A stretch of 34,391 nucleotides of DNA from Ignavibacteria bacterium (GCA_037441245.1 JBBISM010000002.1:1-34391), one strand, 5' to 3'. Shown: positions 11,494 to 32,830, counted from the stretch's first letter. Notes: generated by a model from the sequence alone, not told the origin. Numbers and translations: made by a program.

Positions 11494-12240
11494 ATGAAGA
11501 TTCCACACATACTGATTCCACTTCTGTTGTTATCAAGTTGCACAATTGTTAAAAAAATAACAGGCACAGATATTGACCCAGTAAGATTCGAAAAAGCCCG
11601 AGAAGCTAAAATGTTAGAAATTAGAAGCGAATTCGCTGGAAAAATGGCAAAAAAGATAATTGACAGGACATTTGATAAAAGCGATATAACTATTTCAATA
11701 AGCCAATCATTTATCAATCAAATTGTCAAAGAATATATCGGTTCGACAGGTCAGCTTGACCAAAACACAAGCTTTGTTATCAATAATATCACACCAACAT
11801 TAAACTACGGCTCAGCTATAATATCTATTGAGTTAGAAGCTTTCAATTCTTCTCATAATGTTACTGTCTTTCTTGCTATGGATTGTATTTTAGCTTTCGC
11901 AACCGATAAAAACGAAATCAATATTAGGTTCGAACCGTTTAATATTGCGCCTGTTGCAGTTACTAAAGGTTTGTTATCTTCAGCAAGCGAAATAATCGAA
12001 AATTTGATTAAAATCAATTTAGCTGATTTAAGTAAAAAATTTCCACCCATCACACTTCCAATTAATTTCAAAAACAATTTCGAAATAAAAGAAACAAATA
12101 CAAAAATCAGTGATAAAATAAACCTTGCTATTAAAGTACCAGAAAGGAAAATTAATTATACCGTATCCATAAACGATATTTTTATTTTTACTGATAATAT
12201 ATTAATTGCTTTAAACATTGATGAAATCTCGGTTAAGTAA
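11494..12240 (+). CDS. hypothetical lipoprotein
   Basis: Signal peptide with lipobox LLLLSSC. No family recognised. The stop overlaps the next start (TAATG at 12238-12242). Confidence 0.6.
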   Translation: MKIPHILIPLLLLSSCTIVKKITGTDIDPVRFEKAREAKMLEIRSEFAGKMAKKIIDRTFDKSDITISISQSFINQIVKEYIGSTGQLDQNTSFVINNITPTLNYGSAIISIELEAFNSSHNVTVFLAMDCILAFATDKNEINIRFEPFNIAPVAVTKGLLSSASEIIENLIKINLADLSKKFPPITLPINFKNNFEIKETNTKISDKINLAIKVPERKINYTVSINDIFIFTDNILIALNIDEISVK

Positions 12241-13076
12241 TGAAAATTTATAATTTAATATCAATAGCATTTTTAGCTGTTGCTTGCAAATCAATAGATT
12301 TACCAACAATAGAACAGTCAGAAAATTTAATAAACCAATATAAATCAAGTTTCGAAATGGCGGAAAAAGCAATTATTTCCAAGCAATACAAAATTCCAGT
12401 AGGAAATGATTTGATTTTTCGCACCCAACATTATGCTTTGAATAAAATTTTCAATACAATCGCAAACCATCATACTGAAGATGTGTACATACATTTCGAA
12501 AATTCCCCCAATTTTTTTAGCGAAAAGAAAACTGTAGTCGGTATTAGCTATACCAATTCAATCAATACTGACTCGGGTTTAATTAAAATGGACATAAAAA
12601 AGTTCAACCTCAATAGAATTCATAATAACACAATTGATTGTGATATAAGTATTTCTGGAACTGGGAAAATCTCAATTTCTGGTGTATATACTGGGGTCAA
12701 AGCAAGGGCAACCCCTGAAATAGAATTAACTTTAGATGAAAATTTAGCATTTGAAATCATACCTGGAATGAATGACCAAATTGTTCTCACCCCAAAACCA
12801 AAATTATTGAATATGAAAACCAAATTCACAATTAATCTTCTATCGTGGAAATTGCCTTATTCAAAGAATTTCGCATTTCAAACAAAAGATTTACTCAAAC
12901 CAATAGCCCTACCATTGATTTTTACTACTGAATTTAATTTACCTCCAATCAGTCAATCAAATAAAACTTCCAACTCACCTGCAAAAACATACCGAATTAG
13001 AATGAATAACTCAAAAATTAATGCACAAAACAATACTATTGAATATAGAGCAGATATAAAGCTGGATAAAAAATAA
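12240..13076 (+). CDS. hypothetical lipoprotein
   Basis: Signal peptide with lipobox FLAVAC. Translationally coupled to the preceding lipoprotein gene. No family recognised. Confidence 0.6.
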   Translation: MKIYNLISIAFLAVACKSIDLPTIEQSENLINQYKSSFEMAEKAIISKQYKIPVGNDLIFRTQHYALNKIFNTIANHHTEDVYIHFENSPNFFSEKKTVVGISYTNSINTDSGLIKMDIKKFNLNRIHNNTIDCDISISGTGKISISGVYTGVKARATPEIELTLDENLAFEIIPGMNDQIVLTPKPKLLNMKTKFTINLLSWKLPYSKNFAFQTKDLLKPIALPLIFTTEFNLPPISQSNKTSNSPAKTYRIRMNNSKINAQNNTIEYRADIKLDKK

Positions 13077-15869: not shown

Positions 15870-16102
15870 TTTTATCCATAATAATAAATTATTTGCAAAA
15901 ATAAAATAAAATTAAAAACACAAACGTTTATAAAAATAAATTAAAATTCTCGCAATATTCACAAAACTTTGAAAAAGACGATAAAATTTGTTATTTTGCC
16001 AAGTGAAAATTAAAGTCCCAGCAAAAAAATGGAAATCTAACAATTTGCATACCCTCTCAAAGGCTTTTAAATTCTAAAAAATTTGTCCCAATAAAAAAAT
16101 GT

Positions 16103-16125
16103 TTGCAATTATTATTGAATTGCAA
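16103..16125. promoter_or_regulatory. candidate operator: perfect inverted repeat TTGCAATT-N7-AATTGCAA
   Basis: Read directly from the sequence. It lies ~120 nt upstream of the 16246 start, inside the 376-bp trkA/16246 divergent intergenic region. The AT-rich context raises the chance expectation. Confidence 0.25.
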
Positions 16126-16245
16126 TAAATTGTATGTTTAAGCAATTTTAAAATAGACAAATATTTTAAAAAATATTAAAGCAAGAAACAAAAATTCAAA
16201 TGAGACAAATCAATAATTCCAGAAATATAAATAAGGAGAACTCCA

Positions 16246-18528
16246 ATGAGTAAGGGCGGCGGAACAGCGAAAGTATATTTCATACTTTATTTAGCAGTTG
16301 TACTCGAACTGCTTATAATTATCGTCGAACGCGACGAAGCCGAAGAAAGCTTGATGAAAAAACAAAAGGAGACAATGAAGATTGTCGAAAGCATCTTATC
16401 GCAATTACAATCAGGCGCTGGTACAGAAGGCATTAATACAAGACCCCAAGACGAAATAACACTGCCACCTCCAGGAATTGATATCAAGCAAGTTATGGGT
16501 GCCGATATCAAAACATACAGACGATACATAGTCGAAGTCGGCGTTACAGATATTTCTTCCGCTCTTAAACGGCTTGAAGACGAAAATGAAAAAGACTATA
16601 TACAAAGATTGAAAAAATTAATCGAGTTGGGAAATGTCGAAGAAATCGAATATCAGATATTCTTCAATCCGAGTGATGACCCTACAAATCCTCCAGAATT
16701 TTTGACAAATGAGGAAATTCTCAAAGGCAAACATGATTATACAACCTGGACACCAGGACAAAGAATTACTACACAAAGTGGCGTTGAATGGGAATTTCTT
16801 AGCATTAGGAAATTAAAGCTCGACAAAGAAACAACATTCAATAATATTCATCTTGATAATATCAAAATTGAATTAATACAACCGATATATCCCCGAGAAC
16901 TTCAAATAGCCACCGGTCCTGCCTTCAATCCGAAAGAAGTTCACGAGGATAGTGCATTTTTTTATTCCGTATTTGAAAGTTTACAACCAGCTATTTTCGT
17001 TGGTGGACAGGAATTACTAAAACGTGCATTTGTTGTTAATTTCCAACCCCCCGACAGAGCCGGCTGGTATAAATTGAGATTTAGTTCGAGGACAAATAGA
17101 ATACTTGGAGTTCGCTCCGATCAAAAAGCTGATGAACTCGATGACGAAACTACAATTAATATTGGAACTGTACAACTCACAGTCAAAGATTTGAGAAAAG
17201 TCAGAAAAGAATTGCTATCTAGATTAGAAAAATACTCACTCCCAAGCTATGAAGATTTAGCCAAAACAGGTGATATCGAAAAATTCGATGAAGGTTTACG
17301 TAGAGCTGTTTCTGAGGCTTCAACCGAAGAAGACGCAGCCGATATCATCCGCAAAATCCGCTTATATGGCTATATATCGAAGCTATTAGCACCCGGTATG
17401 TCCATCAATTTCGCTCAAAACCGAGGAGCAATTGAATTTAACGTTCGTGTTATCACACCAAAACCTCCTATAGCAGAACCGACGGTTACGTTACCAAATT
17501 ATACACCAAGCTTTGATAAAATACCTGCAGTTTTTGAATTTACAATTAGTCCATTTCAAAGTGAAGCTACCAATTTCGTAGAAGGAAAAGTAACCGATGT
17601 GACTGGTGCCACAGTCGCTAGAATTGAGTTCAGACCGTTAGATAAAATAGCTGGCTTAGACATTGCTCCGCCTGTTCAAGGCGGCAGACGAGAATACAGA
17701 GGCATAATTGACCAATCCCTACCCCCTGGAAAATATAGAATTGATGTTACCCATAAATTAGGGAATAAGTTTAAAAATGAATCTGCTGAACTCGAGATAT
17801 TTAGCACTGGATTAACAGGTGAAAGTCGAAATGCAATAGAATCACGAATGAACGCACTTTCATTCTATGGCTATCCTGTTTCCATCGAAGCAATACCAAC
17901 TTCTGGTGGTAAAATTCGACCCAGTCAATTTAGACTTTATATGTTCACAGACAACAATCTACAGGTAACTCCTATCGAAGGATTGACAAATACAGATAAA
18001 ATTCTGCAACTATATTGCGATGCAAAAACAGTTAGCTTAAGAATAACCTGGATCCAACCATACACGAACACAGAAGTTGATTTATTCCCACTCAAAACTT
18101 ATGAAATTCAACAAGAAGCCCCAGAATTTACTTCACAACCACAAATTGACTATTCTGGGAGTACAAATAAATTCCGAGTGAGAATATCCGGATTAAACAT
18201 TTCGCTTCCAACTGCAGGATGCCAAGATAGACCTGCAACCGTCAAATACAAACTTGGCAAGTTGGATAAAATTGACGGCCTCAAAACCTATGACCCATCA
18301 ATCGAACCAACTATTGAACCAGAAGGAGATGGCTATTCGATACTTCTAGAATTATCAGGTAGATTAGAAAGAGGCGAAAGGAAAATTTCCGGAACACTCA
18401 ATTTGCCCATAATCGCTTGGGCTATAAATCCAAATGGAAAAGTTTCTGAAGAAACAACATATCCTTTGACAATCAGGATAAATTGGGAGCCAGGCCAAGG
18501 CGATAGACCTCGTCCCAGAGCAAGATAA
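16246..18528 (+). CDS. hypothetical single-pass membrane protein with large extracytoplasmic multi-domain region
   Basis: 760 aa with a strong SD (AAGGAG) 7 nt upstream. It has a short basic N-terminus and one TM helix (VYFILYLAVVLELLIIIV). A helical region follows, then beta-rich segments rich in P/T/G, ending in the tail GQGDRPRPRAR. No family recognised. Confidence 0.7.
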   Translation: MSKGGGTAKVYFILYLAVVLELLIIIVERDEAEESLMKKQKETMKIVESILSQLQSGAGTEGINTRPQDEITLPPPGIDIKQVMGADIKTYRRYIVEVGVTDISSALKRLEDENEKDYIQRLKKLIELGNVEEIEYQIFFNPSDDPTNPPEFLTNEEILKGKHDYTTWTPGQRITTQSGVEWEFLSIRKLKLDKETTFNNIHLDNIKIELIQPIYPRELQIATGPAFNPKEVHEDSAFFYSVFESLQPAIFVGGQELLKRAFVVNFQPPDRAGWYKLRFSSRTNRILGVRSDQKADELDDETTINIGTVQLTVKDLRKVRKELLSRLEKYSLPSYEDLAKTGDIEKFDEGLRRAVSEASTEEDAADIIRKIRLYGYISKLLAPGMSINFAQNRGAIEFNVRVITPKPPIAEPTVTLPNYTPSFDKIPAVFEFTISPFQSEATNFVEGKVTDVTGATVARIEFRPLDKIAGLDIAPPVQGGRREYRGIIDQSLPPGKYRIDVTHKLGNKFKNESAELEIFSTGLTGESRNAIESRMNALSFYGYPVSIEAIPTSGGKIRPSQFRLYMFTDNNLQVTPIEGLTNTDKILQLYCDAKTVSLRITWIQPYTNTEVDLFPLKTYEIQQEAPEFTSQPQIDYSGSTNKFRVRISGLNISLPTAGCQDRPATVKYKLGKLDKIDGLKTYDPSIEPTIEPEGDGYSILLELSGRLERGERKISGTLNLPIIAWAINPNGKVSEETTYPLTIRINWEPGQGDRPRPRAR

Positions 18529-18577
18529 ATTTGGAATAATTTTTGATAAAAATTAATAAAATTAATAGAGGAGAAAA

Positions 18578-20329
18578 ATGTTAAATCTAAAAGTTAAGAA
18601 GATATTAACAATCATACTGGGGCTAACAATATGCTTGCCTTTGTATGTTCAGACATCATCAGATGAATCATTCAGAATCAAACTCGAAAGCACTTTATTC
18701 CGCTTTAAAAATTGGCGATTTTCGAATATTTCTCTCTATCAACTCAAGAGTATCAGCGATGTTACAAAAGCAATTCAAACAAAAGACACAAGAGCTCCAG
18801 GAGTTGAAACCGACACACCTACTGAAGGAGTACCCGAATGCGTCAAAAATGCTGACGAATTAATCCGCAACAATTATCAAAGAGGCGTTCAAAACAACTT
18901 GTCACAGAGTCGTATTGAAAGGGAATTAGTTTCTCGTAATATACCCCTTCCTGAAAAACCAATAAGAGATTGCTTATTCGGTTACTATCAATCTATTAAA
19001 ACTATTGGAATAAAAAGAATCAGAAATTGCTATATTATAACAACTCGTGTTACTAGGGGGGATATACTTCCAAATGTCATTATTGGAATGATTGTATCAT
19101 ATGAGGATGAAGAACAAATCGAGAGAAATATTGATAGAGCAAGCCCAAGCGATATTTATACTTATGATGAGTTAAAGCAATTCGATTTAGTAGACCCAAA
19201 ACAATTTGGTGCCGAAACTCTATATAATTTATTAATGAATGCTTTTATGCAAAATAACGTAATTAATAGAACACTCGAAGCTCAAGGTATCGGCACTTTA
19301 TTAACATTCGCTCCGAAATCTTTCGGTGTTACCAAATCTCTAATTAGAGAAGAAGCTAATGCCCTTTCGGAAGACGTTCAAACATTTATGCGGATTTCCG
19401 AGGGGCAACCGAACGATATCGTATTGAAAGAACACGAAGTAATTGTAAGCCCTGATTATATCAGCTGGCGACGCTATGAGCTTTTCGTTATTGAATACAG
19501 CCCTGGCGAGTTCGATACTGTGAGTTTCATTACCAATCAGGGATTACCCAAATACGGAGTAGAACTCCGCTATGGCATCGAGGATATTAATTATCCGTCC
19601 CTATGGAGCGAAAGAATGACTATACGCGCACTTTGGGAAAATGTAAAATTAGGATTAGTACTGCCAACAAATGGTTGGGCATCAATCAGTAAAGACGCAT
19701 TCAATATTGACCGCCATCTCACATTTGGCGGATGGGGTGTTTCGGGAGAAGCAGACTTCCCATTCAAAGTAATACGAAATAGCGGTGTCTTCAAAGTCTC
19801 AGGTGCATATATTTTTGGCGATGCAAGAGAAGCAGATTATAAAAACCGCGGATTAAATATTGACAATTATGAGACTGTTTATCCATTTTTAGATGATTAT
19901 AGAAAATATGATTACTTAATCCGAGCAAATGGCCAATTGCATTATACATTTGGCGTAGCAGTTGATGAGGATTACTTGCTGAGGTTCGGTATAGGTGGAA
20001 CCATATATAACGCTGAGCAATGGACTATAAAACCCAATGACAATAATGATAAATTAATTATGACCCAAGTTGGTGATGAAACCCTTGGCGGTATCTCTGG
20101 CAAAGTTGAATTTATGTCTCGTAATGCTGTTACGCCCTATGGGGGTAGTTTGCAATATTTCGATGAAGCCATTATGGCTAATGTTTGGTTACAAATACCA
20201 GTAGTTCAAAATACATTTGCTCTAAAGCTCGATGTCAAAGGATATTGGACTGCTTTCAGAGACAAGCTTCACCCCTGGGAAAAATCTAATGTATTTATCC
20301 CAATGGTCAGAGCAATTGTTAATTTTTAA
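18578..20329 (+). CDS. hypothetical exported protein, N-terminal soluble domain plus C-terminal outer-membrane beta-barrel-like region
   Basis: 583 aa with an SD (GAGGAG) 4 nt upstream and an N-terminal signal sequence. The C-terminal ~250 aa has alternating hydrophobic/aromatic strands and a terminal Phe (AIVNF), as in OMPs. Confidence 0.65.
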   Translation: MLNLKVKKILTIILGLTICLPLYVQTSSDESFRIKLESTLFRFKNWRFSNISLYQLKSISDVTKAIQTKDTRAPGVETDTPTEGVPECVKNADELIRNNYQRGVQNNLSQSRIERELVSRNIPLPEKPIRDCLFGYYQSIKTIGIKRIRNCYIITTRVTRGDILPNVIIGMIVSYEDEEQIERNIDRASPSDIYTYDELKQFDLVDPKQFGAETLYNLLMNAFMQNNVINRTLEAQGIGTLLTFAPKSFGVTKSLIREEANALSEDVQTFMRISEGQPNDIVLKEHEVIVSPDYISWRRYELFVIEYSPGEFDTVSFITNQGLPKYGVELRYGIEDINYPSLWSERMTIRALWENVKLGLVLPTNGWASISKDAFNIDRHLTFGGWGVSGEADFPFKVIRNSGVFKVSGAYIFGDAREADYKNRGLNIDNYETVYPFLDDYRKYDYLIRANGQLHYTFGVAVDEDYLLRFGIGGTIYNAEQWTIKPNDNNDKLIMTQVGDETLGGISGKVEFMSRNAVTPYGGSLQYFDEAIMANVWLQIPVVQNTFALKLDVKGYWTAFRDKLHPWEKSNVFIPMVRAIVNF

Positions 20330-20374
20330 ATTTGATAAATGAAATATGTAGTAAAATAAATATAAAGCCCTGAT

Positions 20375-21805
20375 ATGAAAAAATATTTGTTATTTGCATT
20401 AATACTGTTTGTTGCTTGGTTCGACTCATACTCGCAACCGATTAACAGAAAAGCAATCTATGATTCACTTACAACCCTCAATCCTGAAATAAAGCAGTAT
20501 TTCCCAAGGTGGAAAATTTGCGAAAGAGATCTTCAAATACAAATTTATCAAACATTTTTAACCTTGGGCTATGATAAGGAACAATTAGATATGCAAAATG
20601 TTGATGTTTTGGCATCGCCAAGAGCCGCAGATTATTTGCCATTCGAAATTCTTTTATTAACTTGTGGCAAATCTTCAATGAATTCCGTTGAAATCGAGTC
20701 AAATATGACCTCGCTACTTATCGGATTTATATCTGGCGAATTATATTATAGCGGAAGGGATAGAGGTTATCAAAAAGATAATGCCTATCGTGATTATTGC
20801 TATAACGATTTACCGATTGACCTACCTTTCTCCGATGACCAGACAGCAGCAATTACAAATTATCTATTACCCACGAATGTAACACACGCATTCACTGTCT
20901 CTTTATTTGAGCAATCCCTGAAATTTGGGGAAACAGGTTTCTGGATTCGTTCTAAAATCGGTACCGACCAAATTGGCTATCATTTTTGGTCATCGGGCGA
21001 ATCTAAAATTATCTTGCAAAGACCTTTGTATGTTAATAATGATACCGAAAGCCGTTCAAGGATACCATTTTTGATTAATGCATATTTTGGTGGGGCATAT
21101 AGAATCTCTGGTGGAATCAATGAACAAAACAATATGCTCAGTTGGGTCAAAAGCAGAAAACTAAATACTGGACCTGGAGGTAAACTTATCGCAGGGCTCG
21201 ATTTCCATATACCAATACTCCCAGAAGCAGGCATTTCACTTAATACTGAAATACCATTACAAGTACTCAATACTAAAGCAATTGATGATGGTGCTTATTC
21301 ATATTATCCAAACTCAAACGAGGTAGAAATCAATCCTGAAAATCCAAATTCTGTTTACCCTGTTGAGAAAATTGCAGCTTTGCTTCGAGCTACTGGCCAA
21401 ATTACTGTATTTTATAACTTTTGGCTCGACAAGAGCAACCCAGAAAACTTTTTTAGATTTGACTTCGGATTGAATTATAGCGAAGTTCGTGAAATGGCTC
21501 ACTTTCGTAACACTGCATCAGCAATTTCATATTTAACGAACGACGCTACTAATCTAAACACATATAAACCTAATGAGTTTGGTGATTGGGTATTCGCAAA
21601 AATCGAATATCGCAACCAAAGGACTTTTCCTTTCGGTGCAAGTATTCAATATTCCAACCAGATTCTTCTCGGTAGAGTCTATATTCCATTATTCGGCAAT
21701 TGGTTTTATATTGAAGCTAAGTATGCTCAACCATTACGTTCAGTTAGACCTTTTGAGTCTGAACATTTCTTCGTTGTTTCGCCTGTTTTGAGATTGACTA
21801 TTTAA
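20375..21805 (+). CDS. hypothetical exported protein with C-terminal barrel-like region paralogous to the preceding gene
   Basis: 476 aa with signal peptide MKKYLLFALILFVAWFDSYSQ. The C-terminus GASIQYSNQ...PFESEHFFVVSPVLRLTI aligns by eye with GGSLQYFDE...PWEKSNVFIPMVRAIVNF of the upstream protein. Confidence 0.65.
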   Translation: MKKYLLFALILFVAWFDSYSQPINRKAIYDSLTTLNPEIKQYFPRWKICERDLQIQIYQTFLTLGYDKEQLDMQNVDVLASPRAADYLPFEILLLTCGKSSMNSVEIESNMTSLLIGFISGELYYSGRDRGYQKDNAYRDYCYNDLPIDLPFSDDQTAAITNYLLPTNVTHAFTVSLFEQSLKFGETGFWIRSKIGTDQIGYHFWSSGESKIILQRPLYVNNDTESRSRIPFLINAYFGGAYRISGGINEQNNMLSWVKSRKLNTGPGGKLIAGLDFHIPILPEAGISLNTEIPLQVLNTKAIDDGAYSYYPNSNEVEINPENPNSVYPVEKIAALLRATGQITVFYNFWLDKSNPENFFRFDFGLNYSEVREMAHFRNTASAISYLTNDATNLNTYKPNEFGDWVFAKIEYRNQRTFPFGASIQYSNQILLGRVYIPLFGNWFYIEAKYAQPLRSVRPFESEHFFVVSPVLRLTI

Positions 21806-21825
21806 CAATGCGTATATATTTAAAA

Positions 21826-21858
21826 TACCCTTCTAACATTTAGTTGTGTTAGAGGGTA
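21826..21858 (+). terminator. candidate intrinsic terminator or attenuator between 20375-21805 and 21899-23242
   Basis: TACCCT(T)CTAACA-tttagttg-TGTTAGAGGGTA forms a 12-bp stem with one bulged T. It is followed by TATATTTATAAT. Confidence 0.4.
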
Positions 21859-21898
21859 TATTTATAATCAAACATTTTTAACGCTTTAATAAATTAAA

Positions 21899-23242
21899 AT
21901 GATGCTATTCAATCCAAAGATAAAATTCTTACTTATTTTAATTTTTCTTTTTATAATTAACATTCACCTCTCAGGAGATGACAAACTCATTGACACATCT
22001 GCAAAAAAGAAAGAATTATTGAAAGAAGCTGAAGTACGAGCAGCACAAAAAGAAATCGAACTTACAATTCGAAGCGTTGACATTTCTAAATTTCCAATTA
22101 TTAAAATTTTTATTGAAGCATACAATAAACTTGGTCAGCCTCTTGATACTATTAAACAAGAAAATGTTTTAGTATATGAAAAAAGCATCCCACGTAATGT
22201 AATATCTGTCGAAAAAGTTCCAGTTAGTGATGAAATTATGGTTGACTTTGTATTTCTTATTGACATCACTGGTTCTATGCAAAAATACATCAATTATGTT
22301 ATTAGGCACACTTCAGGATTTACAAGTAAATTAGTAAAAAGAGGAATTGACTATCGTTTAGGATTAATATTATTTACCGATGATATTGAAAAAATCTATC
22401 AACCCACAAAAACTGTCAGCGAGTTTCTTGGTTGGCTCGAAGGTGTGCGTGCCCGAGGTGGAAGCGATGAAAAAGAAAATGCTCTCGAAACTTTGGAAGA
22501 AGCGGCATTGACTATTAAATACCGAAATGCTGCTAATCGCGTTGTAGTTCTTATCACCGATGCACCTTACCACCAGAAAGGTGAAGATGGCGATGGAGTT
22601 ACTAATCAAACGACTGAATCCATCATTGATTTATTGATTAATAATGAAATTAGAGTCTTTGCTATTACTCTGCCCCGTTTAGAAAATTATAAATTAATTT
22701 CTCGAAAAACACGTGGTAATTTCTTCGATATAGAATATCCTTTTTCAACAATACTGGACAACTTCTCTCAACAATTGACAAATCTATACTATATTACTTA
22801 TAACTCTGATTATAAAACAATACCCGATTCAATTGATATAGCTGTATTAAATGAATTTACTGGCAAACTTGTCCGCAAAACCATCCCAATTATTGAACTT
22901 GGTAGAAAATTGATTATCGAAAATCTACTTTTCGAAACTAATAAAGCTGAATTACCTGAAAAAGTTCCTGCTCTTGATATACTTTCTGAATATATGTTGA
23001 ATAAAACTCAAATCAAACTGCTTATAGAAGGACATACTGATAATATTGGTAGTAACCAGCTAAACGATCGTTTATCGCTAATGCGTTCAGAGAGCGTAAA
23101 AAATTATCTGATTAAGAAAGGAATTCAAAACGATAGATTAAAATCTATTGGCTATGGCAAACGAAGACCGATTGCAAGTAATAACGATGATTTCGGAAGA
23201 CGACTCAACAGAAGAACTGAGATTGTCATTATGGAGAAATAA
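21899..23242 (+). CDS. vWA domain protein with C-terminal OmpA-like peptidoglycan-binding domain
   Basis: 447 aa with a signal peptide and a vWA MIDAS-like motif (DFVFLIDITGSM, VVVLITDAPYH). The OmpA_C motifs are LLFETNKAEL, IEGHTDNIGS, NDRLSLMRSESV and NRRTEIVI. Confidence 0.8.
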   Translation: MMLFNPKIKFLLILIFLFIINIHLSGDDKLIDTSAKKKELLKEAEVRAAQKEIELTIRSVDISKFPIIKIFIEAYNKLGQPLDTIKQENVLVYEKSIPRNVISVEKVPVSDEIMVDFVFLIDITGSMQKYINYVIRHTSGFTSKLVKRGIDYRLGLILFTDDIEKIYQPTKTVSEFLGWLEGVRARGGSDEKENALETLEEAALTIKYRNAANRVVVLITDAPYHQKGEDGDGVTNQTTESIIDLLINNEIRVFAITLPRLENYKLISRKTRGNFFDIEYPFSTILDNFSQQLTNLYYITYNSDYKTIPDSIDIAVLNEFTGKLVRKTIPIIELGRKLIIENLLFETNKAELPEKVPALDILSEYMLNKTQIKLLIEGHTDNIGSNQLNDRLSLMRSESVKNYLIKKGIQNDRLKSIGYGKRRPIASNNDDFGRRLNRRTEIVIMEK

Positions 23243-25201: not shown

Positions 25202-26653
25202 CTATTTAGCTATAATAACAAACATTGTTCTACGATTCAAAGCTCTACCTTCAGGCGTATCATTGGAGGCAACAGGTTGAGAAAATCCGAATCCTCTATA
25301 TCTCAATCTACTTGGTTCTATACCACGCTCAATCATAGCAAGCATAACATTCTTTGCTCTCTCATCAGAAAGTCTTTGGTTATATTCAACAGTTCCAATA
25401 TTATCCGTATGCCCTTGTATTTCTAATTTTAATCTTGGCATAGTTTGCATTATATCAACTATTTCATCTATAATTGGAAAAGATTCTTTCTTGACAACCG
25501 CAGAATCAAAATCAAATAATATTGGTCGTTTGAAGGCATCATATAGCTTTTTCCAAGGGGCAGTGAGTTCATCAGCTGTGCCATATTCACCTCTTGCTGT
25601 CAATATATCGCTCCGCCCAGGTACATCTAAATCTACAAACACCTCGTGATAACCCCAATATTCAGGTGGTACATAAGTGATATAATAATAATACCGCAAT
25701 GACATATAAATATCTCGAATAATGCTGATAAGCTCAGATTTTGAATATGCCTTATAAAATTTTCCACCAGAATTTTGAGCCATATATCGCAAATTATCAT
25801 CTTTCGAATAACCAAAGGCAACCGCAAAAATATTGACTTTCAATCGTTTAGCCCGAGAATACAGAGAATCCAATTCGACCTTAGAATAATTGTCATCACC
25901 ATCAGAAAATACGACAAGTACACGTGGAACTACTTCGGGAGTACGTTCTAAAATATTCATCGAACTCATCATTGCATCGTACATCGCAGAGAATAATCCA
26001 AAACCCTCATTTTTTTTTGCCCCATATAGCTGTAGAATCTTTTCTTTATCATTACTTAAAGGAACTTTTAAGTCATAGTCTCGATTAAAAGTATTGATTG
26101 CTATATAATCATAAGACATTTTTAATGAAATAAAAATTTCGATACCTTCTTGAATAATTTCTTTCACACCTGTCATCGAACCACTATAATCTACAGACAA
26201 AACGATATTATAGGGTATTGAATCATTAGCTCCAAACTCTCTAACGTTGAAGATTTCAATTGGGGCTTCTTTGCGATTGCGATGCTTACCTAAAAATTCA
26301 GTTACTTTTGTGAAATATTCTTGTGTTGTATCTTTTTTATACGGTTCAGCCATATTCGTTACAAAATGACCTGCAGAATCATACACTCTTGAATATACTT
26401 TCAAATTCTCCGGATATTCATCTGTTTCAATCCTGAAAATATCAAATATTAGCTTATTTACATCAATTGAATCTATGGGTTTTGTGCCGGTTATATATAT
26501 CTTTTTTGTTGTATCTTGGCTGAAATCTTCTATCCATAATTGAGATTGTAACTCATAACCTCTGGGTCTTTTGATAGAACAAGAGGATAAAAAAAGCCAA
26601 ATTGAAAAAATAGAAAATAAAATTAGCTTGATATTTAATGTACTATGCATCAT
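25202..26653 (-). CDS. vWA-OmpA lipoprotein (paralogue of 21899-23242)
   Basis: The canonical MIDAS motif VDYSGSM is followed by VLVVFSDGDDN. The OmpA_C motifs are ILFDFDSAVV, IQGHTDNIGT, NQRLSDERAKNV and NRRTMFVI. I chose the start at the ATG at 26653 (MMHSTLNIKLILFSIFSIWLFLSSC, lipobox) because it forms a TAATG overlap with the upstream stop. The track start at 26701 would overlap the neighbouring gene by 49 nt. Confidence 0.8.
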   Translation of the reverse strand: MMHSTLNIKLILFSIFSIWLFLSSCSIKRPRGYELQSQLWIEDFSQDTTKKIYITGTKPIDSIDVNKLIFDIFRIETDEYPENLKVYSRVYDSAGHFVTNMAEPYKKDTTQEYFTKVTEFLGKHRNRKEAPIEIFNVREFGANDSIPYNIVLSVDYSGSMTGVKEIIQEGIEIFISLKMSYDYIAINTFNRDYDLKVPLSNDKEKILQLYGAKKNEGFGLFSAMYDAMMSSMNILERTPEVVPRVLVVFSDGDDNYSKVELDSLYSRAKRLKVNIFAVAFGYSKDDNLRYMAQNSGGKFYKAYSKSELISIIRDIYMSLRYYYYITYVPPEYWGYHEVFVDLDVPGRSDILTARGEYGTADELTAPWKKLYDAFKRPILFDFDSAVVKKESFPIIDEIVDIMQTMPRLKLEIQGHTDNIGTVEYNQRLSDERAKNVMLAMIERGIEPSRLRYRGFGFSQPVASNDTPEGRALNRRTMFVIIAK

Positions 26654-27324
26654 TATAATTTCAATGAAAGAATTAATCCATCTCCGATAGTTAACAAACA
26701 AGTATAATAATCATTCTGATTTATGAGATACTCATTAAATTCTCTAATTGCCATTACTTCTCTTAAATTTCTATTTGGATTATCTTCAACTATTTCGCCA
26801 AAAGCCAATCCATTATCAGCAGAAAAAATACCACCTTGCCGCAACAATTCTCGAGATTTATCGAAATAAAAACGGTAATTGATTTTATCGGCATCTACAA
26901 ATATCAAATCATAATAACAATCGGGCTTGAAATTTGATAAATAATCTTTCGCATCAGCATTTACAACCTCAATCTTGTTTTCTAATCCTGCATTTGATAC
27001 TTGCTTGCGGATAAATTCTGCATAATTTGAATTGATTTCAATAGCAATCAAGTGACCATCATCGGGCATAGCTCGAGCCATTGATATTGCTGAATATCCA
27101 CCCAACGAACCGACTTCTATAATATTTTTGAAATTTAATGCCCTTATTAAAAACTGAAGATATCTCGCTTGGTCTGCTGAAATCGTTATCTCTGGCAACC
27201 CTTTGGCAAGCGATTCAGATTTAAGTCTTTTTAAGAAATCATCTTCAGGTGCAAAGTTTGATTTTATATAATTAAAAATATCTTCTGTTATAGGTGTTGG
27301 ATATGATGACATCTCGAAATCCAA
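26653..27324 (-). CDS. class I SAM-dependent O-methyltransferase (caffeoyl-CoA OMT-like, family 3)
   Basis: 223 aa with IIEVGSLGGYSAISMARAM, LIAIEIN and DLIFVDADKINY, which are characteristic of this family. Confidence 0.75.
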   Translation of the reverse strand: MDFEMSSYPTPITEDIFNYIKSNFAPEDDFLKRLKSESLAKGLPEITISADQARYLQFLIRALNFKNIIEVGSLGGYSAISMARAMPDDGHLIAIEINSNYAEFIRKQVSNAGLENKIEVVNADAKDYLSNFKPDCYYDLIFVDADKINYRFYFDKSRELLRQGGIFSADNGLAFGEIVEDNPNRNLREVMAIREFNEYLINQNDYYTCLLTIGDGLILSLKL

Positions 27325-27356: not shown

Positions 27357-28253
27357 TTATTTTTCATAGACTGCTAATATATGAGCGGGCTTTCTAATTA
27401 TTAAGTTGAACAATTTGTCAACAAATTTCCATACAATAAATGGCAAGTATTTCAACAATAAATAAGTTCGAGCAATTATCAGAGCTTTATTTCCTGTTTT
27501 ATAAAATTTTAACGCTTTACAATTGATTTTCTCTGAAAATTTTGTAAGACATTTTTCATCAAAAGAATGAAGATGAGCATTTTTTGGAGTGAGTTTCCCG
27601 CAATGAATACATTGGGAATAGTGCAATACTTCCTGGTAAGGCGTACTTATTATTAGCTTCCCACCAACTTTTAGCAAAGAAAAAAGTTTTTCAATAAAAA
27701 GTTCTGGTTCAACTATATGTTCAATCACCTCAGATGCTATTATAACATCGAAAGTATTCTCCTCAAAGGGCGGTTGCAAAGCATCGCCAACAATCCCATA
27801 ATGATTTATGTTAGAATGCTTTTGCAAAGCTTTGTTTACGTTTTCAAAAGCAATATCGAATGAAATTACCTTAAATCCACGTGGACAGAAATAACTCGCA
27901 ACCCACGCCGAACCAGAGCCAACATCAAGAATAGTAGCTTCAGAATAATTCCCAACCAATGAAGTTATATACTCTCGCAAACGTCGCTCATCATCTTCAG
28001 TTGCTTTGCAAACCCTTTCCTCGAAATAATTGAATAATTGAGCATCCTTTCGATAATGCTCAATATAATTCATATTGTAAATATTATCCAATCCTGAATC
28101 TGGTAGTAGAATTGGTATCGAATCAAGTACTTGATATGCTACATTGCTCGAGGGAGCTAAATAAAAATCATCTTTGAATATCAGTTCTTCATTCGATTTA
28201 GGACAAATTAATTTGATTGGTTTCAAGGCAAAATTGTTTTGATTTGTCGGCAT
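27357..28253 (-). CDS. class I SAM-dependent methyltransferase with N-terminal Trm112-like segment
   Basis: Motif I is ILDVGSGSAW and post-I is VISFDIA. The N-terminus has LICPKSNEEL...VLDSIPILL. The ATG at 28253 overlaps the mlaD-like stop (TGATG); the track start at 28256 is a TTG one codon upstream. Confidence 0.7.
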   Translation of the reverse strand: MPTNQNNFALKPIKLICPKSNEELIFKDDFYLAPSSNVAYQVLDSIPILLPDSGLDNIYNMNYIEHYRKDAQLFNYFEERVCKATEDDERRLREYITSLVGNYSEATILDVGSGSAWVASYFCPRGFKVISFDIAFENVNKALQKHSNINHYGIVGDALQPPFEENTFDVIIASEVIEHIVEPELFIEKLFSLLKVGGKLIISTPYQEVLHYSQCIHCGKLTPKNAHLHSFDEKCLTKFSEKINCKALKFYKTGNKALIIARTYLLLKYLPFIVWKFVDKLFNLIIRKPAHILAVYEK

Positions 28254-29197
28254 CAAGGCTTGCGACCAAATGAAACATTTGTATTTACACCATATTTTCT
28301 AATTTGCTTGATTAGCTCGTTTATATTTTTCAAAGATGTATCTAATTGTGCGGTAAATGCTTTATCATAAATAAGTTTCGATGCTAATCCATCGCCTTTG
28401 CGGATATTTTCTGTAATATCCTTTAAGTCCATTATCATACTATCTGCTTTTGCAATAGTTTGATTAGTTTGCTTGATTAATAAATTTGTATTCTCGGTGG
28501 TTTCTTCGAATTTTTCGACTAAATTATTAATTTTTTGTTTATTATCTGAGATTAAAATTCTAATATCTAAACTCAAAGTTTTCAGATTTTGAATCGTTAA
28601 CTCCAATTGTTTATCATTGTTTTGAATTAATTCATTCAAATTTGAAGCTAATATTTCAGTATTGGTTAATATTCTATTTATACTTGCGACGTTCCCTTCA
28701 TTCATTACTAAATTTAAATTTGTCGCAATTGTATCAATTCTTTTGAATAGCAATACCGCTTCTGAGCTGATATTCCCGAAAATCGCAACTAACTCTGGAA
28801 GGTCTGGTGGAGTTGCTCCAATAATCTCTTGGTTTATTTCGAATGGTTTATCGGATGTGCCAGGCATTATTTCAATTTTCTTCCCACCGGTTAGTTCTAA
28901 AATTGTTATGCGAGCAGTGGCATCGCTCTTTAAATCATCGGTCTTATTAATCGAAGCTGTTATCAAAACAGAGCCATTATCGCTTTGCACTGATAAGACA
29001 ATTCCTCTCTTGACACCATTAACAACCACTGGAGCTGATTGCTCAATACCCCCAGAATTTTGAAATCTCAATTTGATTGTTCGGCTCGATATTGCTTCGT
29101 GGTATCCTCTGCCGAGTGTAATACCAATTATCAGCACTATTACACCCAAAAAGGTAACAATACCAACTTTAATTTCATTAGCTCGTTGGGAACGCAT
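28253..29197 (-). CDS. MlaD/MCE family protein with long C-terminal coiled-coil
   Basis: 314 aa with an N-terminal TM helix (VGIVTFLGVIVLIIGI). The MCE domain contains IKLRFQNSGGIEQSAPVVVNGVKRGIV and ARITILELTGGKKIEI, followed by ~170 aa of N/L/I/K-rich helix. Confidence 0.75.
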   Translation of the reverse strand: MRSQRANEIKVGIVTFLGVIVLIIGITLGRGYHEAISSRTIKLRFQNSGGIEQSAPVVVNGVKRGIVLSVQSDNGSVLITASINKTDDLKSDATARITILELTGGKKIEIMPGTSDKPFEINQEIIGATPPDLPELVAIFGNISSEAVLLFKRIDTIATNLNLVMNEGNVASINRILTNTEILASNLNELIQNNDKQLELTIQNLKTLSLDIRILISDNKQKINNLVEKFEETTENTNLLIKQTNQTIAKADSMIMDLKDITENIRKGDGLASKLIYDKAFTAQLDTSLKNINELIKQIRKYGVNTNVSFGRKP

Positions 29198-30125: not shown

Positions 30126-30481
30126 TATTGCATCTCTTTACTATAAATTAACAATGCTTTATGTTTCGTTATTTTTTTCAATTCCTCAGCAGTATTGTCC
30201 AATTTATTCTTTAATAAGTCTATATTATATTTTTCAAGACGTAGTAATTCTTGATAAATTGAATCCCATTGAATTTGTTGCTTTTTATCTAATTTACTAA
30301 GTCCATTGTTTTCGAGCCATTTCTGTATTTCGACCAATTTATCTGTTCTCTTTTCATAAAATAAATCAAGCTTAGAGAGGGAATCCTCAGCTAATTTATC
30401 TTCTTGATTTAAAATTTCAGAAATAGATTTAGTATCTATTACTATTTCCTCCAACAACTGCAGTTTATCATATCCGGGCAT
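30125..30481 (-). CDS. hypothetical helical protein; possible flagellar export chaperone (FliT/FlgN-like) by context only
   Basis: 118 aa, predicted all-helical and charged. It overlaps flaG by 14 nt at its start and the flgM-like gene by 1 nt at its end. No motif recognised. Confidence 0.45.
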   Translation of the reverse strand: MPGYDKLQLLEEIVIDTKSISEILNQEDKLAEDSLSKLDLFYEKRTDKLVEIQKWLENNGLSKLDKKQQIQWDSIYQELLRLEKYNIDLLKNKLDNTAEELKKITKHKALLIYSKEMQ

Positions 30482-30893
30482 TCGCTAATTGACCTTGTTC
30501 TGTAATTATTCTTGCAATCTTTAAAGCTACTTCAGGGGGTATTTGCCTGATAACTTCCTTAGTTTCATCATTAATTATTTTAATTACCATCTTCTGAGAT
30601 TCAACATCTTTAGTAAATTGAAGATATAAATTGTTATTATTTCGCATTTCATCGAAAATCCCATTTATAACTTCTAATTTTTCATTATCTGCTATATTAA
30701 CTTCTATCCCATCAGAGTTTGATTTTTTCTCGCTAATTTCTTCCTTGATTATACCTTTAAAAGATTGTGTTTCGCTCGAATTTTGACGTATTCCAGTCTT
30801 TAGCTCATCAAAATCGTGAACTACTATTGGAGGAATTCCCTGTGTTGTAAATATCATAACTACCTCCATTTGTTTATAAATAAAATCACACAC
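30468..30893 (-). CDS. flaG: flagellar protein FlaG
   Basis: LQFTKDVESQKMVIKIINDETKEVIRQIPPEVALKIA is the hallmark FlaG C-terminal motif. The true start is probably the internal Met of MIFTTQG, which has GGAGG 5 nt upstream. The track start is a non-ATG codon 12 codons earlier. Confidence 0.8.
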   Translation of the reverse strand: MCDFIYKQMEVVMIFTTQGIPPIVVHDFDELKTGIRQNSSETQSFKGIIKEEISEKKSNSDGIEVNIADNEKLEVINGIFDEMRNNNNLYLQFTKDVESQKMVIKIINDETKEVIRQIPPEVALKIARIITEQGQLANARI

Positions 30894-30915
30894 ACTATAA
30901 TAGCTAAATAGCTCA

Positions 30916-32358: not shown

Positions 32359-32369
32359 TTTTTAATTGA

Positions 32370-32720
32370 TTAATCTAAATTAAAGGCAACCAACCAGGTA
32401 TCTCTTAATTCTTGAATAATATAAAGCGCTTCATCATATTTTTTTTGGAAAATACACCTTTGACAATATTCATATAAACGATATAATCTTGTCGCAGTAT
32501 CTTCATATTCAAAATTGAGTGAACCCATTAATTCAATAAGAATTCGACTCATTTTAGTGAGGTCTTTTCTTTTGCAACTTACAATGAAAAGATCATACAT
32601 TTTGAGAACTAATTTTTCTTTCGACCAAGACAGAACCTCCTGTTCAAGATAAGTAGGGAATTTTCCATCTGTTTTATTCCCATAAGCTCTGCTTGCCGCC
32701 AATTGTTGCACCGATGTCAT
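32370..32720 (-). CDS. fliS: flagellar export chaperone FliS
   Basis: 116-aa four-helix pattern: KLVLKMYDLFIVSCK, ILIELMGSLNFEYEDTATRLYRLYEYC, IIQELRDTW. Confidence 0.8.
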   Translation of the reverse strand: MTSVQQLAASRAYGNKTDGKFPTYLEQEVLSWSKEKLVLKMYDLFIVSCKRKDLTKMSRILIELMGSLNFEYEDTATRLYRLYEYCQRCIFQKKYDEALYIIQELRDTWLVAFNLD

Positions 32721-32749
32721 ATCACTTCCTTGTAATATTAATAATCTAT

Positions 32750-32782: not shown

Positions 32783-32830
32783 TAAATCTAAGTCCAAAAT
32801 GTCAAATTCACTCAAAACCATTCAAGGGTA

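What the first reader, a model, noticed from the sequence alone, without database searches (positions are those of the whole stretch)
16246..23242. Unrecognisable four-gene envelope cluster: single-pass membrane protein, two paralogous barrel-like proteins, vWA-OmpA anchor
Four same-strand genes are separated by only 49, 45 and 93 nt and follow a 376-bp AT-rich control region. Together their products appear to span the whole cell envelope.
- Gene 1 is a 760-aa protein with one N-terminal TM helix and ~730 extracytoplasmic residues.
- Genes 2 and 3 are signal-peptide proteins whose C-terminal ~250 aa look like outer-membrane barrels.
- Gene 4 has a MIDAS-bearing vWA domain fused to an OmpA-type peptidoglycan-binding domain.

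I cannot place the first three in any family I know. They are not recognisably Por/Gld, Bam, Lpt, Tol-Pal, secretin or flagellar ring components. The first two genes carry the strongest Shine-Dalgarno sequences in this part of the window. An IM anchor, a periplasm-spanning body, OM barrels and a PG tether form the logic of a trans-envelope machine or tether. That makes this the best candidate here for an undescribed system. The function is pure inference.
Basis: partly seen in the sequence, partly recalled or inferred. Interest (0 to 1): 0.8.

Follow-up and report, generated by a model that had tools for sequence, protein, structure and literature searches.

The report
Uncharacterised conserved cell-envelope gene cluster
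Four neighbouring genes, kept together in every sampled genome of an almost uncultured bacterial class (Kapabacteria), encode an inner-membrane-anchored rod, two related outer-membrane barrels and a cell-wall-binding adaptor; three of them match no known protein family, so this is probably an undescribed envelope-spanning complex whose function is still only inferred.

Summary
Four same-strand genes lie at 16246-23242 with gaps of 49, 45 and 93 nt, behind a 376-bp, 21% GC spacer.

**Proteins**
- g1 has one N-terminal membrane helix. Its model (pLDDT 84) continues as a long helix, alpha/beta domains and about three Ig-like domains.
- g2 (pLDDT 83) has a signal peptide, an N-domain and about 16 beta-strands. 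It gives only weak, generic outer-membrane-barrel fold matches and ends in Phe in 55 of 56 relatives.
- g3 shares the C-terminal ~190 residues with g2 (hhalign E 1e-5).
- g4 is a soluble periplasmic vWA protein (MIDAS variant DxTxS) fused to an OmpA-type peptidoglycan-binding domain.

**No known family.** g1-g3 hit nothing in Pfam, NCBIfam, PADLOC or PDB.

**Distribution.** The g1 family is narrow: 210 hits among 1.84 billion representatives, all labelled relatives being Kapabacteria-type MAGs. Gene order is invariant (69/69, 63/63 and 59/59 eligible loci) and persists in relatives with only 26-30% identity.

**New findings**
- g1 residues 9-34 are nearly invariant on every helix face, including a Glu inside the membrane.
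- A terminator-like hairpin sits between g3 and g4 in about 87% of loci, so g1-g3 is the core transcription unit.

**Verdict.** This is most likely a lineage-specific trans-envelope complex. Its function is inferred, not shown.

The parts
15870..16245 (.). 376-bp AT-rich (21% GC) spacer between divergent trkA and g1. It is the presumed promoter and leader region of g1-g3. The SD TAAGGAG lies 7 nt before the ATG.
   Evidence: No promoter was mapped; the sigma-70 consensus scan found no more sites than in shuffles.
16246..18528 (+). g1: a 760-aa type-II (N-in) single-pass inner-membrane protein. The TM helix continues as a long helix (residues 8-57). Alpha/beta domains follow (~60-390), then about three Ig-like beta-sandwich domains (~393-750).
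   Evidence: AF2 pLDDT 84; Foldseek returns only generic tandem-Ig arrays; a single hydrophobic segment; homologues. No Pfam, NCBIfam or PDB hit.
16270..16347 (+). g1 residues 9-34 (KVYF[IV]LYLAV[VI]LELLII[IF][VI]ERDEAEE): the TM helix plus an acidic juxtamembrane motif. It is nearly invariant on all helix faces and includes the intramembrane Glu21 and Arg29-Asp30.
   Evidence: In 70 representatives clustered at 50% identity, positions 17-34 are 90-100% identical, apart from the V/I/L swap at position 19, while the rest of the protein falls to 26-30% identity.
18578..20329 (+). g2: a 583-aa secreted protein with a signal peptide, a helix-rich N-domain (~30-280) and a predicted ~16-strand outer-membrane beta-barrel (~286-582). 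The C-terminal residue is Phe.
   Evidence: AF2 pLDDT 83; Foldseek: AlgE, porins, OmpA-TM, KdgM, FadL; weak; C-terminal F in 55/56; signal peptides.
20375..21805 (+). g3: a 476-aa secreted protein with a signal peptide and an N-domain carrying three invariant Cys (C49, C97, C142). Its C-terminal ~200 aa are homologous to the g2 barrel, and the C-terminal residue is Ile or Leu.
21829..21856 (+). Hairpin (11 bp, 6-nt loop) followed by a T-rich tail, 24 nt after the g3 stop codon. It is the local copy of a terminator-like stem-loop conserved at this position.
   Evidence: median z -3.7 in 62 loci against 0.2 and 0.65 for the other two spacers; 20/62 against 2/56 and 0/57 under strict criteria; 80.7% of cells paired against 42-61% when slid; 0 of 500 shuffles reach it.
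21899..23242 (+). g4: a 447-aa periplasmic protein. It has a signal peptide, a beta-rich N-region, a vWA domain (residues 116-265, nt 22244-22693) with MIDAS DxTxS...S...D, and an OmpA_C peptidoglycan-binding domain (residues 344-438, nt 22928-23212).

Best explanation
The cluster encodes a lineage-specific, constitutively needed structural complex of the diderm envelope.

**Shown**
- g1 is anchored in the inner membrane by one N-terminal helix. It projects a ~730-residue multi-domain rod, ending in Ig-like domains, into the periplasm.
- g2 and g3 are secreted proteins with related C-terminal outer-membrane-barrel-type domains and distinct N-domains.
- g4 is a soluble periplasmic protein with an intact metal-ion-dependent adhesion site and an intact OmpA-type peptidoglycan-binding motif.
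- The gene order is fixed across the whole class.

**Inferred**
- The distal Ig domains of g1 dock on the periplasmic N-domains of a g2/g3 barrel pair.
- g4 uses its MIDAS to grip an acidic residue of one of these partners while its OmpA domain clamps the assembly to peptidoglycan.
- The result is an inner membrane-peptidoglycan-outer membrane connector, that is, a tether, spacer or platform.
- g1-g3 are made from one transcript. g4 is made at a different, probably lower, level by read-through of the conserved hairpin or from its own promoter.
- The all-face invariance of the g1 membrane helix means that it is buried in a protein partner or tight oligomer inside the inner membrane, not merely in lipid.
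For: - **Topology and domains:**
- **Co-function:** the order g1-g2-g3-g4 is found in 69/69, 63/63 and 59/59 eligible loci. The flanks are not conserved. The same four genes occur in ~60% GC relatives (L084, L085) and in L086, where the gaps are only 24, 11 and 6 nt.
- **Strong purifying selection:** about 50% identity over full length across the class.
- **High-expression signals:** rare SD sequences on g1 and g2.
- **Functional motifs in g4:** the MIDAS and the peptidoglycan-binding residues are conserved in 61 orthologues.
- **Outer-membrane targeting of g2:** the barrel has a beta-signal-type terminal Phe in 55/56 relatives.
- **Rod-like g1:** its tandem Ig-like tail resembles rod-forming Ig arrays.
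Against: - No protein-protein contact was tested, because no multimer prediction was available.
- The barrel fold matches are weak (TMq 0.15-0.22), and barrel closure could not be inspected.
- g3 was not modelled, and it ends in Ile/Leu rather than an aromatic residue.
- g1 length varies from 541 to 790 aa among relatives with no compensating change in g2 or g3. That fits poorly with a fixed-length periplasmic ruler.
- g4 is absent beside the triad in L082/L083, and one g1 relative stands alone (L087).
- A passive tether does not obviously need an invariant intramembrane Glu.
Confidence: 0.45

Rival explanations
1. Motor-coupled force transducer. The g1 membrane helix is the inner subunit (in the manner of MotB, ExbD, TolR or GldM) or a TonB/TolA-like client of an ion-driven 5:2 stator encoded elsewhere. 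g1 would transmit torque or pulling force through its rod to the g2/g3 barrels, and g4 would act as the peptidoglycan-fixed reference point.
For: - Residues 9-34 of g1 are invariant on every helix face, with Glu21 inside the bilayer and Arg29-Asp30 at its edge. The rest of the protein diverges to 26-30% identity. Such a pattern is expected for a helix fully enclosed by protein, as B-subunit helices are.
- The overall plan is a short cytoplasmic N-terminus, one TM helix, a helical stalk and then Ig-like domains, like GldM/PorM (the comparison rests on my own knowledge of the GldM/PorM structures).
- TonB genes are often unlinked to exbBD (own knowledge).
Against: - No MotA/ExbB/TolQ/GldL-like gene lies in or near the cluster in any of 87 loci.
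- No sequence match to the ExbD, MotB or GldM families or to PDB chains was found, even for the N-terminal 77 aa alone.
- Glu21 lies nearer the periplasmic side, unlike MotB Asp32 or ExbD Asp25 (own knowledge).
- A homo-oligomeric bundle could also explain part of the conservation.
Confidence: 0.2
2. Outer-membrane export or uptake channel with a periplasmic scaffold. g2/g3 would be conduits for a polymer or other substrate (AlgE/BcsC/PgaA-like logic), and g1 and g4 would hold the channel in register with the inner membrane and the cell wall.
For: The best Foldseek hits of g2 are the alginate exporter AlgE and general porins. g2 also has a helix-rich N-domain ahead of the barrel.
Against: - No synthase, glycosyltransferase, ABC transporter or other energising or cargo gene is conserved next to the cluster.
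- The fold matches are generic for any large barrel (TMq about 0.2).
- No TPR or other known export-scaffold family was detected.
Confidence: 0.12
3. Accessory scaffold of the flagellar motor (the logic of H-ring/T-ring/basal-disk structures: outer-membrane proteins plus an OmpA-type peptidoglycan binder plus an inner-membrane-anchored spoke), specific to flagellated Kapabacteria.
For: - The window encodes flagellin, FliD and FlaG 7-10 kb away.
- The OmpA domain of g4 scores against MotY and MotB-type models.
- The SD strength of g1 is matched only by the flagellin gene.
Against: - Flagellar genes are not linked to the cluster in the other loci: 0 to 2 of 80 loci hit for the window's four right-hand ORFs (FlaG 0, FliD 0, flagellin 1, the unassigned ORF 33878-34390 2).
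- The OmpA hits cover only the generic domain and lie far below the family cut-offs.
- A phyletic correlation with flagella could not be tested.
Confidence: 0.08
4. Four independent envelope proteins that are merely co-inherited neighbours, with no common complex.
For: - No contact has been shown.
- g4 has a paralogue elsewhere in the window (25202-26701), and vWA-OmpA proteins are common.
- A terminator-like hairpin separates g4 from g1-g3.
Against: - Order and orientation are invariant in every eligible locus while both flanks vary freely.
- The order is retained at 26-30% protein identity and across 33-62% GC.
- The genes are packed tightly in L086, with gaps of 24, 11 and 6 nt.
Confidence: 0.1

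Closest known systems
Type IX secretion / gliding trans-envelope core (PorL/GldL-PorM/GldM motor and rod, PorK/N ring, PorP barrel, PorE OmpA-type peptidoglycan binder)
   Same: It occurs in the same phylum. It also has an inner-membrane-anchored protein with one N-terminal helix followed by a stalk and Ig-like domains (as in GldM/PorM), an outer-membrane barrel partner, and a periplasmic protein with an OmpA_C peptidoglycan-binding domain.
   Different: - No sequence relationship was found to the GldM, PorP/SprF, PorK or PorE families.
- There is no GldL/PorL gene next to g1 and no FGE-type lipoprotein.
- g4 carries a vWA domain instead of PorE's TPR and beta-propeller domains.
- The organism appears to have a separate T9SS, because a CTD-bearing cargo gene lies at 2817-4970.
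Tol-Pal system
   Same: A single-pass inner-membrane protein reaches across the periplasm (TolA) towards an OmpA-type peptidoglycan-binding protein (Pal). It serves envelope integrity and is a conserved housekeeping cluster.
   Different: - There are no TolQ/TolR genes and no TolB beta-propeller.
- g4 is not a lipoprotein, and it scores 68 bits against the Pal cut-off of 125.
- g1 lacks the TolA/TonB SHLS motif, as read directly from the sequence, and is built of Ig domains.
- Two dedicated barrels are present.
Myxococcus Agl-Glt gliding machinery (outer-membrane platform GltA/GltB/GltH barrels, vWA adhesin CglB, single-pass inner-membrane proteins GltG/GltJ)
   Same: Both combine paralogous outer-membrane barrels, a vWA protein with a MIDAS, and single-pass inner-membrane proteins with large periplasmic parts. 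For CglB see PMC9946355, of which only the abstract was seen.
   Different: - CglB is an outer-membrane lipoprotein exposed at the surface, whereas g4 is soluble, periplasmic and peptidoglycan-bound.
- No TolQ/R-type AglRQS genes and no other Glt genes are present.
- No sequence similarity was detected.
- The phylum is different.
OmpA_C / MotB-type peptidoglycan anchors and bacterial vWA (MIDAS) proteins
   Same: g4 is a true member of both domain families. The conserved TD..G..N..LS..RA and NRRTEI motifs and the MIDAS residues are present.
   Different: The fusion of vWA with OmpA_C in a soluble periplasmic protein tied to this triad has no characterised example that I could find.
Large outer-membrane barrels such as AlgE, general porins, FadL and KdgM
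   Same: They are the only structural matches of the g2 C-terminal domain. g2 also has a signal peptide and a terminal Phe beta-signal.
   Different: Matches are weak (E 1e-4 at best, TMq 0.15-0.22, 6-13% identity). g2 adds a ~250-residue N-domain. No family-level sequence hit was found.

Membership tests
T9SS/gliding core (GldLMNK / PorLMKN-PorP-PorE) | Rod protein belongs to the GldM/PorM family (Pfam GldM_N/GldM_C) | tested here: not met
   No Pfam hit at E<=1 for g1 or for any of 51 homologues. No PDB sequence or profile hit. GldM/PorM are not among the top 50 Foldseek hits.
T9SS/gliding core (GldLMNK / PorLMKN-PorP-PorE) | GldL/PorL stator gene immediately upstream of the rod gene | tested here: not met
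   The upstream neighbours are divergent and variable: trkA here, and the best flank cluster is shared by only 20 of 80 loci.
T9SS/gliding core (GldLMNK / PorLMKN-PorP-PorE) | PorP/SprF-family barrel and PorE-family peptidoglycan binder | tested here: not met
   g2 and g3 have no Pfam or NCBIfam hit. g4 scores 67 bits on NF052230 PorE against a cut-off of 600, and only over the OmpA region.
Tol-Pal | TolQ/TolR stator genes and the TolB beta-propeller in the cluster | tested here: not met
   Only four genes are conserved, and none has MotA_ExbB, ExbD or TolB domains.
Tol-Pal | Pal: an OmpA_C lipoprotein reaching the TIGR02802 cut-off | tested here: not met
   68 bits against a cut-off of 125. 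The orthologues have SPase-I signal peptides and no lipobox.
5:2 ion-driven motor inner subunit (MotB/ExbD/TolR/GldM-like) | Single N-terminal TM helix with a conserved charged residue, buried in a stator pentamer | tested here: inconclusive
   The TM helix is invariant on all faces and Glu21 is 100% conserved. However, no family-level sequence match and no stator gene in any locus were found.
5:2 ion-driven motor inner subunit (MotB/ExbD/TolR/GldM-like) | Physical partner: a MotA/ExbB/TolQ/GldL-type pentamer | not testable with these tools
   This needs whole Kapabacteria genomes and multimer prediction. Only +/-10 kb around the cluster was available.
Outer-membrane beta-barrel proteins (g2) | Signal peptide, C-terminal aromatic beta-signal, amphipathic antiparallel strands forming a barrel | tested here: met
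   Signal peptides and terminal Phe in 55/56 relatives. About 16 strands in the AF2 model at pLDDT 83. All significant Foldseek hits are outer-membrane barrels, though weak. Barrel closure itself could not be inspected.
Outer-membrane beta-barrel proteins (g3) | Same features as for g2 | tested here: inconclusive
   A signal peptide is present, and the C-terminal ~190 columns are homologous to the g2 barrel (hhalign probability 82%, E 1e-5). The terminal residue is Ile/Leu, and no model was made.
vWA domain with MIDAS (g4) | Pfam VWA above cut-off, and DxSxS...T...D metal site | tested here: met
   VWA_2 42.7 bits and VWA 41 bits, above cut-offs of 27 and 23.8. D122-x-T124-x-S126, GG(S)189 and T220-D221 are conserved at 70-90% or more in 61 orthologues; the first Ser is replaced by Thr.
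OmpA_C-like peptidoglycan-binding domain (g4) | Pfam OmpA above cut-off, and conserved peptidoglycan-contact motifs | tested here: met
   65.3 bits against a cut-off of 27.2. EGHTD..G....N..LS..RA and NRRTEI are conserved.
Myxococcus Glt outer-membrane platform with CglB | vWA protein is an outer-membrane lipoprotein adhesin; AglRQS (TolQR-like) motor and other Glt genes are present | tested here: not met
   g4 has no lipobox and carries a peptidoglycan-binding domain. No TolQ/R-like genes are in the cluster. Direct comparison with GltA/B sequences was not possible.
Anti-phage defence systems (e.g. Zorya ZorAB) | Match to PADLOC models beyond a generic domain | tested here: not met
   g1-g3 have no PADLOC hit. 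g4 hits ZorB only over the OmpA/MotB domain.

The most novel reading that the evidence does not exclude
The cluster is the periplasmic and outer-membrane half of a new ion-driven trans-envelope machine. The all-face invariant g1 helix, with its intramembrane Glu21 and Arg29-Asp30 collar, plugs into an unlinked 5:2 stator. It converts ion flow into movement of an Ig-domain rod that acts on a dedicated pair of outer-membrane barrels. The vWA-OmpA protein fixes the assembly to the cell wall. That would be a fourth kind of periplasm-crossing force transducer beside TonB/TolA, GldM/PorM and the Myxococcus Glt system, and it would be confined to one little-studied class of Bacteroidota.
Probability: 0.18. 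Interest if true: 0.85.

Novelty: categorically new. Interest (0 to 1): 0.62.

Why it matters
Known connections across the diderm envelope fall into a handful of families: Lpp, Pal and OmpA tethers, Tol-Pal, TonB, GldLM/PorLM, Lpt, Mce/Let and the secretion systems.

This cluster has the parts list of such a connection, yet three of its four proteins belong to no described family. It is fixed in every sampled genome of a whole class.

If the proteins do form a complex, it would be an independently evolved solution for linking the inner membrane, peptidoglycan and outer membrane. If the invariant membrane helix engages a motor, it would also energise the outer membrane.

It offers concrete, testable handles:
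- an intramembrane Glu in g1;
- a MIDAS in g4;
- a conserved intra-cluster terminator-like hairpin that may set subunit ratios.

The caveat is that the lineage is almost uncultured and everything functional is inferred.

Tried and rejected
**Family and sequence searches**
- Pfam and NCBIfam on all four proteins, and Pfam on every member of the three homologue alignments, gave nothing for g1-g3. The only faint recurrences look like noise: DHHA2 in 7/51, CDC48_2 in 6/51 and DUF6850 in 3/55 members, all at E above 0.01.
- PDB sequence searches with single sequences, with profiles and with the g1 N-terminal 77 aa alone gave nothing.
- PADLOC hit only the generic OmpA/MotB region of g4, so a defence-system reading was rejected.

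**Structure searches**
- Foldseek of the whole g1 model was swamped by generic tandem-Ig hits.

**Genomic context**
- Clustering of flanking genes found no further conserved member of the system and no stator, ATPase, synthase or regulator.
- Linkage to the flagellar genes of the window was not reproduced in other loci.

**Other readings considered and dropped**
- A prepilin-type signal in g1 was considered and rejected: Glu is at +14, not +5, after the Gly run.
- An FtsZ-like/vWA/OmpA membrane-remodelling operon (PMC2875224) was considered and rejected, because the cluster has no FtsZ-like gene or GTPase.

**RNA and literature**
- RNAalifold on the MAFFT alignment of the g3-g4 hairpins predicted no structure, because the alignment register was poor. 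Counting pairs for a hand-specified helix worked.
- Rfam found nothing in the window.
- Literature searches found no description of the cluster. A search for the cultured genus Eximiradius also returned nothing.

Full report
**1. What is there**

The window has four + strand ORFs: 16246-18528 (g1, 760 aa), 18578-20329 (g2, 583 aa), 20375-21805 (g3, 476 aa) and 21899-23242 (g4, 447 aa). The gaps are 49, 45 and 93 nt. The spacer to the divergent upstream gene is 376 bp at 21% GC. That upstream gene is trkA, followed by trkH. Downstream, on the other strand, lie a phosphoribosyltransferase and an M28 peptidase.

g1 is preceded by TAAGGAG and g2 by GAGGAG. Among 27 genes in the window, only these two and the flagellin gene have a Shine-Dalgarno match of five or more bases.

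**2. The genes are real and belong to no described family**

Each of g1, g2 and g3 has hundreds of full-length homologues at about 50% identity. All are unnamed or 'hypothetical' and none has a precomputed Pfam domain.

The following searches gave no credible hit for g1-g3:
- Pfam and NCBIfam scans of the window proteins;
- Pfam scans of all 51, 56 and 55 aligned homologues;
- PADLOC;
- PDB sequence and profile searches.

g4 is different. It has VWA (residues 116-265) and OmpA_C (residues 344-438) above the Pfam cut-offs. Its matches to named OmpA-type families (Pal, PorE, MotB, MotY, YiaD and others) cover only the OmpA domain and lie far below each family's cut-off.

**3. Structures**

*g1.* AlphaFold2 with a 51-sequence alignment gave pLDDT 84. 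The model has:
- one continuous helix over residues 8-57, which is the membrane segment 10-27 plus a 30-residue stalk;
- mixed alpha/beta domains to about residue 390;
- about three beta-sandwich domains to residue 750.

Hydropathy finds only that one membrane segment. Lys residues before it and the acidic run ERDEAEE after it argue for an N-in orientation, read directly from the sequence. Foldseek against the PDB returns only generic tandem Ig/FN3 arrays such as titin, ICAM and contactins, so the distal part is a rod of Ig-like domains.

*g2.* The model has pLDDT 83. It shows a signal peptide, a helix-rich N-domain and about 16 strands between residues 286 and 582, the last seven of them long. 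All significant Foldseek hits are outer-membrane barrels (AlgE, porins, OmpA TM domain, KdgM, FadL). They are weak, with best E 1e-4 and TMq 0.15-0.22. g2 ends in Phe in 55 of 56 relatives, which is the usual outer-membrane insertion signal.

*g3.* It shares its C-terminal ~190-200 residues with g2. BLASTP gives E 8e-6 and hhalign gives probability 82%, E 1e-5. In distant relatives the g2-position protein hits g3.

*g4.* Its orthologues have cleavable signal peptides (..AQ..SQ) and no lipobox, so the protein is soluble in the periplasm. The MIDAS variant D122-x-T124-x-S126 with GG(S)189 and T220-D221 is conserved in 61 orthologues. So are the peptidoglycan-contact motifs EGHTD..G..N..LS..RA and NRRTEI.

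**4. Distribution and synteny**

A scan of one genome per species found 291 genomes with a g1 relative. The 80 loci that were fetched are all metagenome-assembled genomes. They are labelled Kapabacteria, Kapaibacterium, Ignavibacteria, Chlorobiota or Bacteroidota, with a few evident mislabels. The closest, at 86% identity, is a Kapabacteria MAG. NCBI places Kapaibacterium in Bacteroidota, class Eximiradiia.

A full HMM search of 1.84 billion representatives found only 210 hits, 102 of them at E<=1e-30. The family is therefore narrow.

Gene order is fixed wherever enough DNA is present:
- g2 follows g1 in 69 of 69 eligible loci;
- g3 follows in 63 of 63;
- g4 follows in 59 of 59.

By contrast, no flanking gene is shared by more than 20 of 80 loci, and the upstream neighbours are mostly divergent.

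Distant g1 relatives of 541-716 aa share only 26-30% identity outside the N-terminus. Their contexts are:
- L084 and L085 (~60% GC) and L086 carry all four genes. In L086 the gaps are only 24, 11 and 6 nt.
- L082 and L083 carry the triad, but no vWA-OmpA gene follows it.
- In L087 one divergent g1 relative stands alone next to mraZ.

The conserved module is thus g1-g2-g3, with g4 nearly always attached.

**5.

*(a) The g1 N-terminus is extraordinarily conserved.* In 70 representatives clustered at 50% identity, positions 17-34 are 90-100% identical. These positions were not used to select the sequences; the one exception is position 19, a conservative V/I/L swap. A17, E21, L22, L23, I25, R29, D30, A32 and E33 are at 100%. 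Every face of the membrane helix is fixed, including a Glu in the bilayer.

A lipid-exposed anchor would not show this. It implies burial in a protein partner or a tight oligomer. No partner is encoded nearby.

*(b) The g3-g4 spacer contains a conserved stem-loop.* In the window it is an 11-bp hairpin at 21829-21856 with a T-rich tail. The evidence across loci is:
- Across 62 loci the spacer folds far better than shuffles, with median z -3.7 and 87% of loci below -2. The g1-g2 and g2-g3 spacers do not (z 0.2 and 0.65).
- Under strict terminator criteria, 20 of 62 loci qualify, against 2 of 56 and 0 of 57 for the other two spacers.
- Hairpins with the CCCTCT...AGAGGG core occur only at this position in 1.39 Mb of related DNA.
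- For a hand-specified 10-bp helix, 80.7% of cells pair, against 42-61% when the partner is slid. Seven pairs show changes on both sides, and 0 of 500 shuffles reach the observed covariation.

g1-g3 is therefore probably the core transcript. g4 would be expressed by read-through or from its own promoter, which could set a different stoichiometry.

**6. Interpretation**

Shown:
- the topologies;
- the domain content;
- the intact binding motifs of g4;
- class-wide fixation of the gene order.

Inferred: the four products form one assembly that links inner membrane, peptidoglycan and outer membrane. In this picture g1 is the inner-membrane-anchored rod and g2/g3 are a barrel pair with periplasmic docking domains. 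g4 is a MIDAS-dependent adaptor clamped to the cell wall.

I rate this at about 0.45. The rivals are:
- a motor-coupled force transducer, driven by the invariant helix (about 0.2);
- an export or uptake channel (0.12);
- independent neighbours with no complex (0.1);
- a flagellar accessory structure (0.08).

The points that weigh against a simple fixed-length tether are:
- the 541-790 aa range of g1 lengths;
- the absence of any tested contact;
- the weakness of the barrel fold matches.

**7. Comparison with known systems**

In logic the cluster resembles the T9SS core (GldM/PorM rod, PorP barrel, PorE peptidoglycan binder), Tol-Pal, and the Myxococcus Glt platform with its vWA protein CglB. 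It fails the defining membership features of each:
- no family-level hit to the component families;
- no stator genes;
- no lipoprotein Pal- or CglB-type protein.

Only g4 is a member of known domain families. An earlier report of vWA and OmpA genes beside FtsZ-like genes (PMC2875224) concerns a different gene set. No paper describing this cluster was found.

**8. Verdict**

The cluster is a real, strongly conserved, lineage-restricted envelope module with no described counterpart. I file it as categorically new at the level of families and system composition, with the explicit caveat that 'trans-envelope complex' is an inference. Interest is 0.62.

Noticed in passing
window 30468-33763 (minus strand): A flagellar gene group: FlaG (30468-30893), FliD (30916-32358) and flagellin (32831-33763). 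The flagellin gene has the strongest Shine-Dalgarno match in the window (8 nt). The organism is therefore probably flagellated.
   Followed up: partly
window 1950-2522 and 2817-4970 (+): A T9SS cargo gene (IgGFc_binding plus a Por_Secre_tail C-terminal sorting domain) appears split. The upstream 190-aa ORF ends with the first 31 positions of the same IgGFc_binding model, while the 717-aa ORF begins at model position 118. This suggests a frameshift, an assembly error or a pseudogene. It also shows that the organism has a T9SS.
   Followed up: no
window 25202-26701 (minus strand): A second vWA-OmpA protein (499 aa) that, unlike g4, has a lipobox (LSSC). An orthologue lies within 10 kb of the cluster, mostly 2-4 kb downstream on the opposite strand, in about 10 of the 80 related loci. 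It may be functionally connected or simply a paralogue.
   Followed up: partly
proteins P0476, P0481, P0501: The central domain of g1 (residues ~244-381: a beta-hairpin pair plus helices, with motifs NIGTVQLTV and KI.LYGYI.KL) also occurs in 600-800-aa proteins that end in a T9SS C-terminal sorting domain. It is therefore an autonomous module that is also used in secreted proteins.
   Followed up: partly
L087 10001-12223 and neighbours: A divergent g1 relative (740 aa) keeps the invariant N-terminal module but stands without g2, g3 or g4. It lies directly upstream of mraZ-rsmH, the start of the cell-division/cell-wall cluster. Two unassigned ORFs (94 and 297 aa) precede it.
   Followed up: no
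L082 14858-16364 and window 28253-29197: Mla-type lipid-transport genes lie near the cluster in two contexts. mlaF/mlaE lie directly after the g1-g2-g3 triad on the opposite strand in L082/L083, and an MlaD-domain gene lies 5 kb downstream in the window. This may be coincidence.
   Followed up: no
window 20375-21805 (g3 residues 49, 97, 142): Three invariant cysteines lie in the N-domain of g3, an odd number for a periplasmic protein. This hints at one disulfide plus a free or intermolecular Cys.
   Followed up: no
window 11494-13076 (+): Two adjacent ORFs (248 and 278 aa; the stop and start codons overlap) have no Pfam family. The second has only a sub-threshold Toastrack/DUF4097 hit. They lie just before the trkH/trkA pair.
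   Followed up: no
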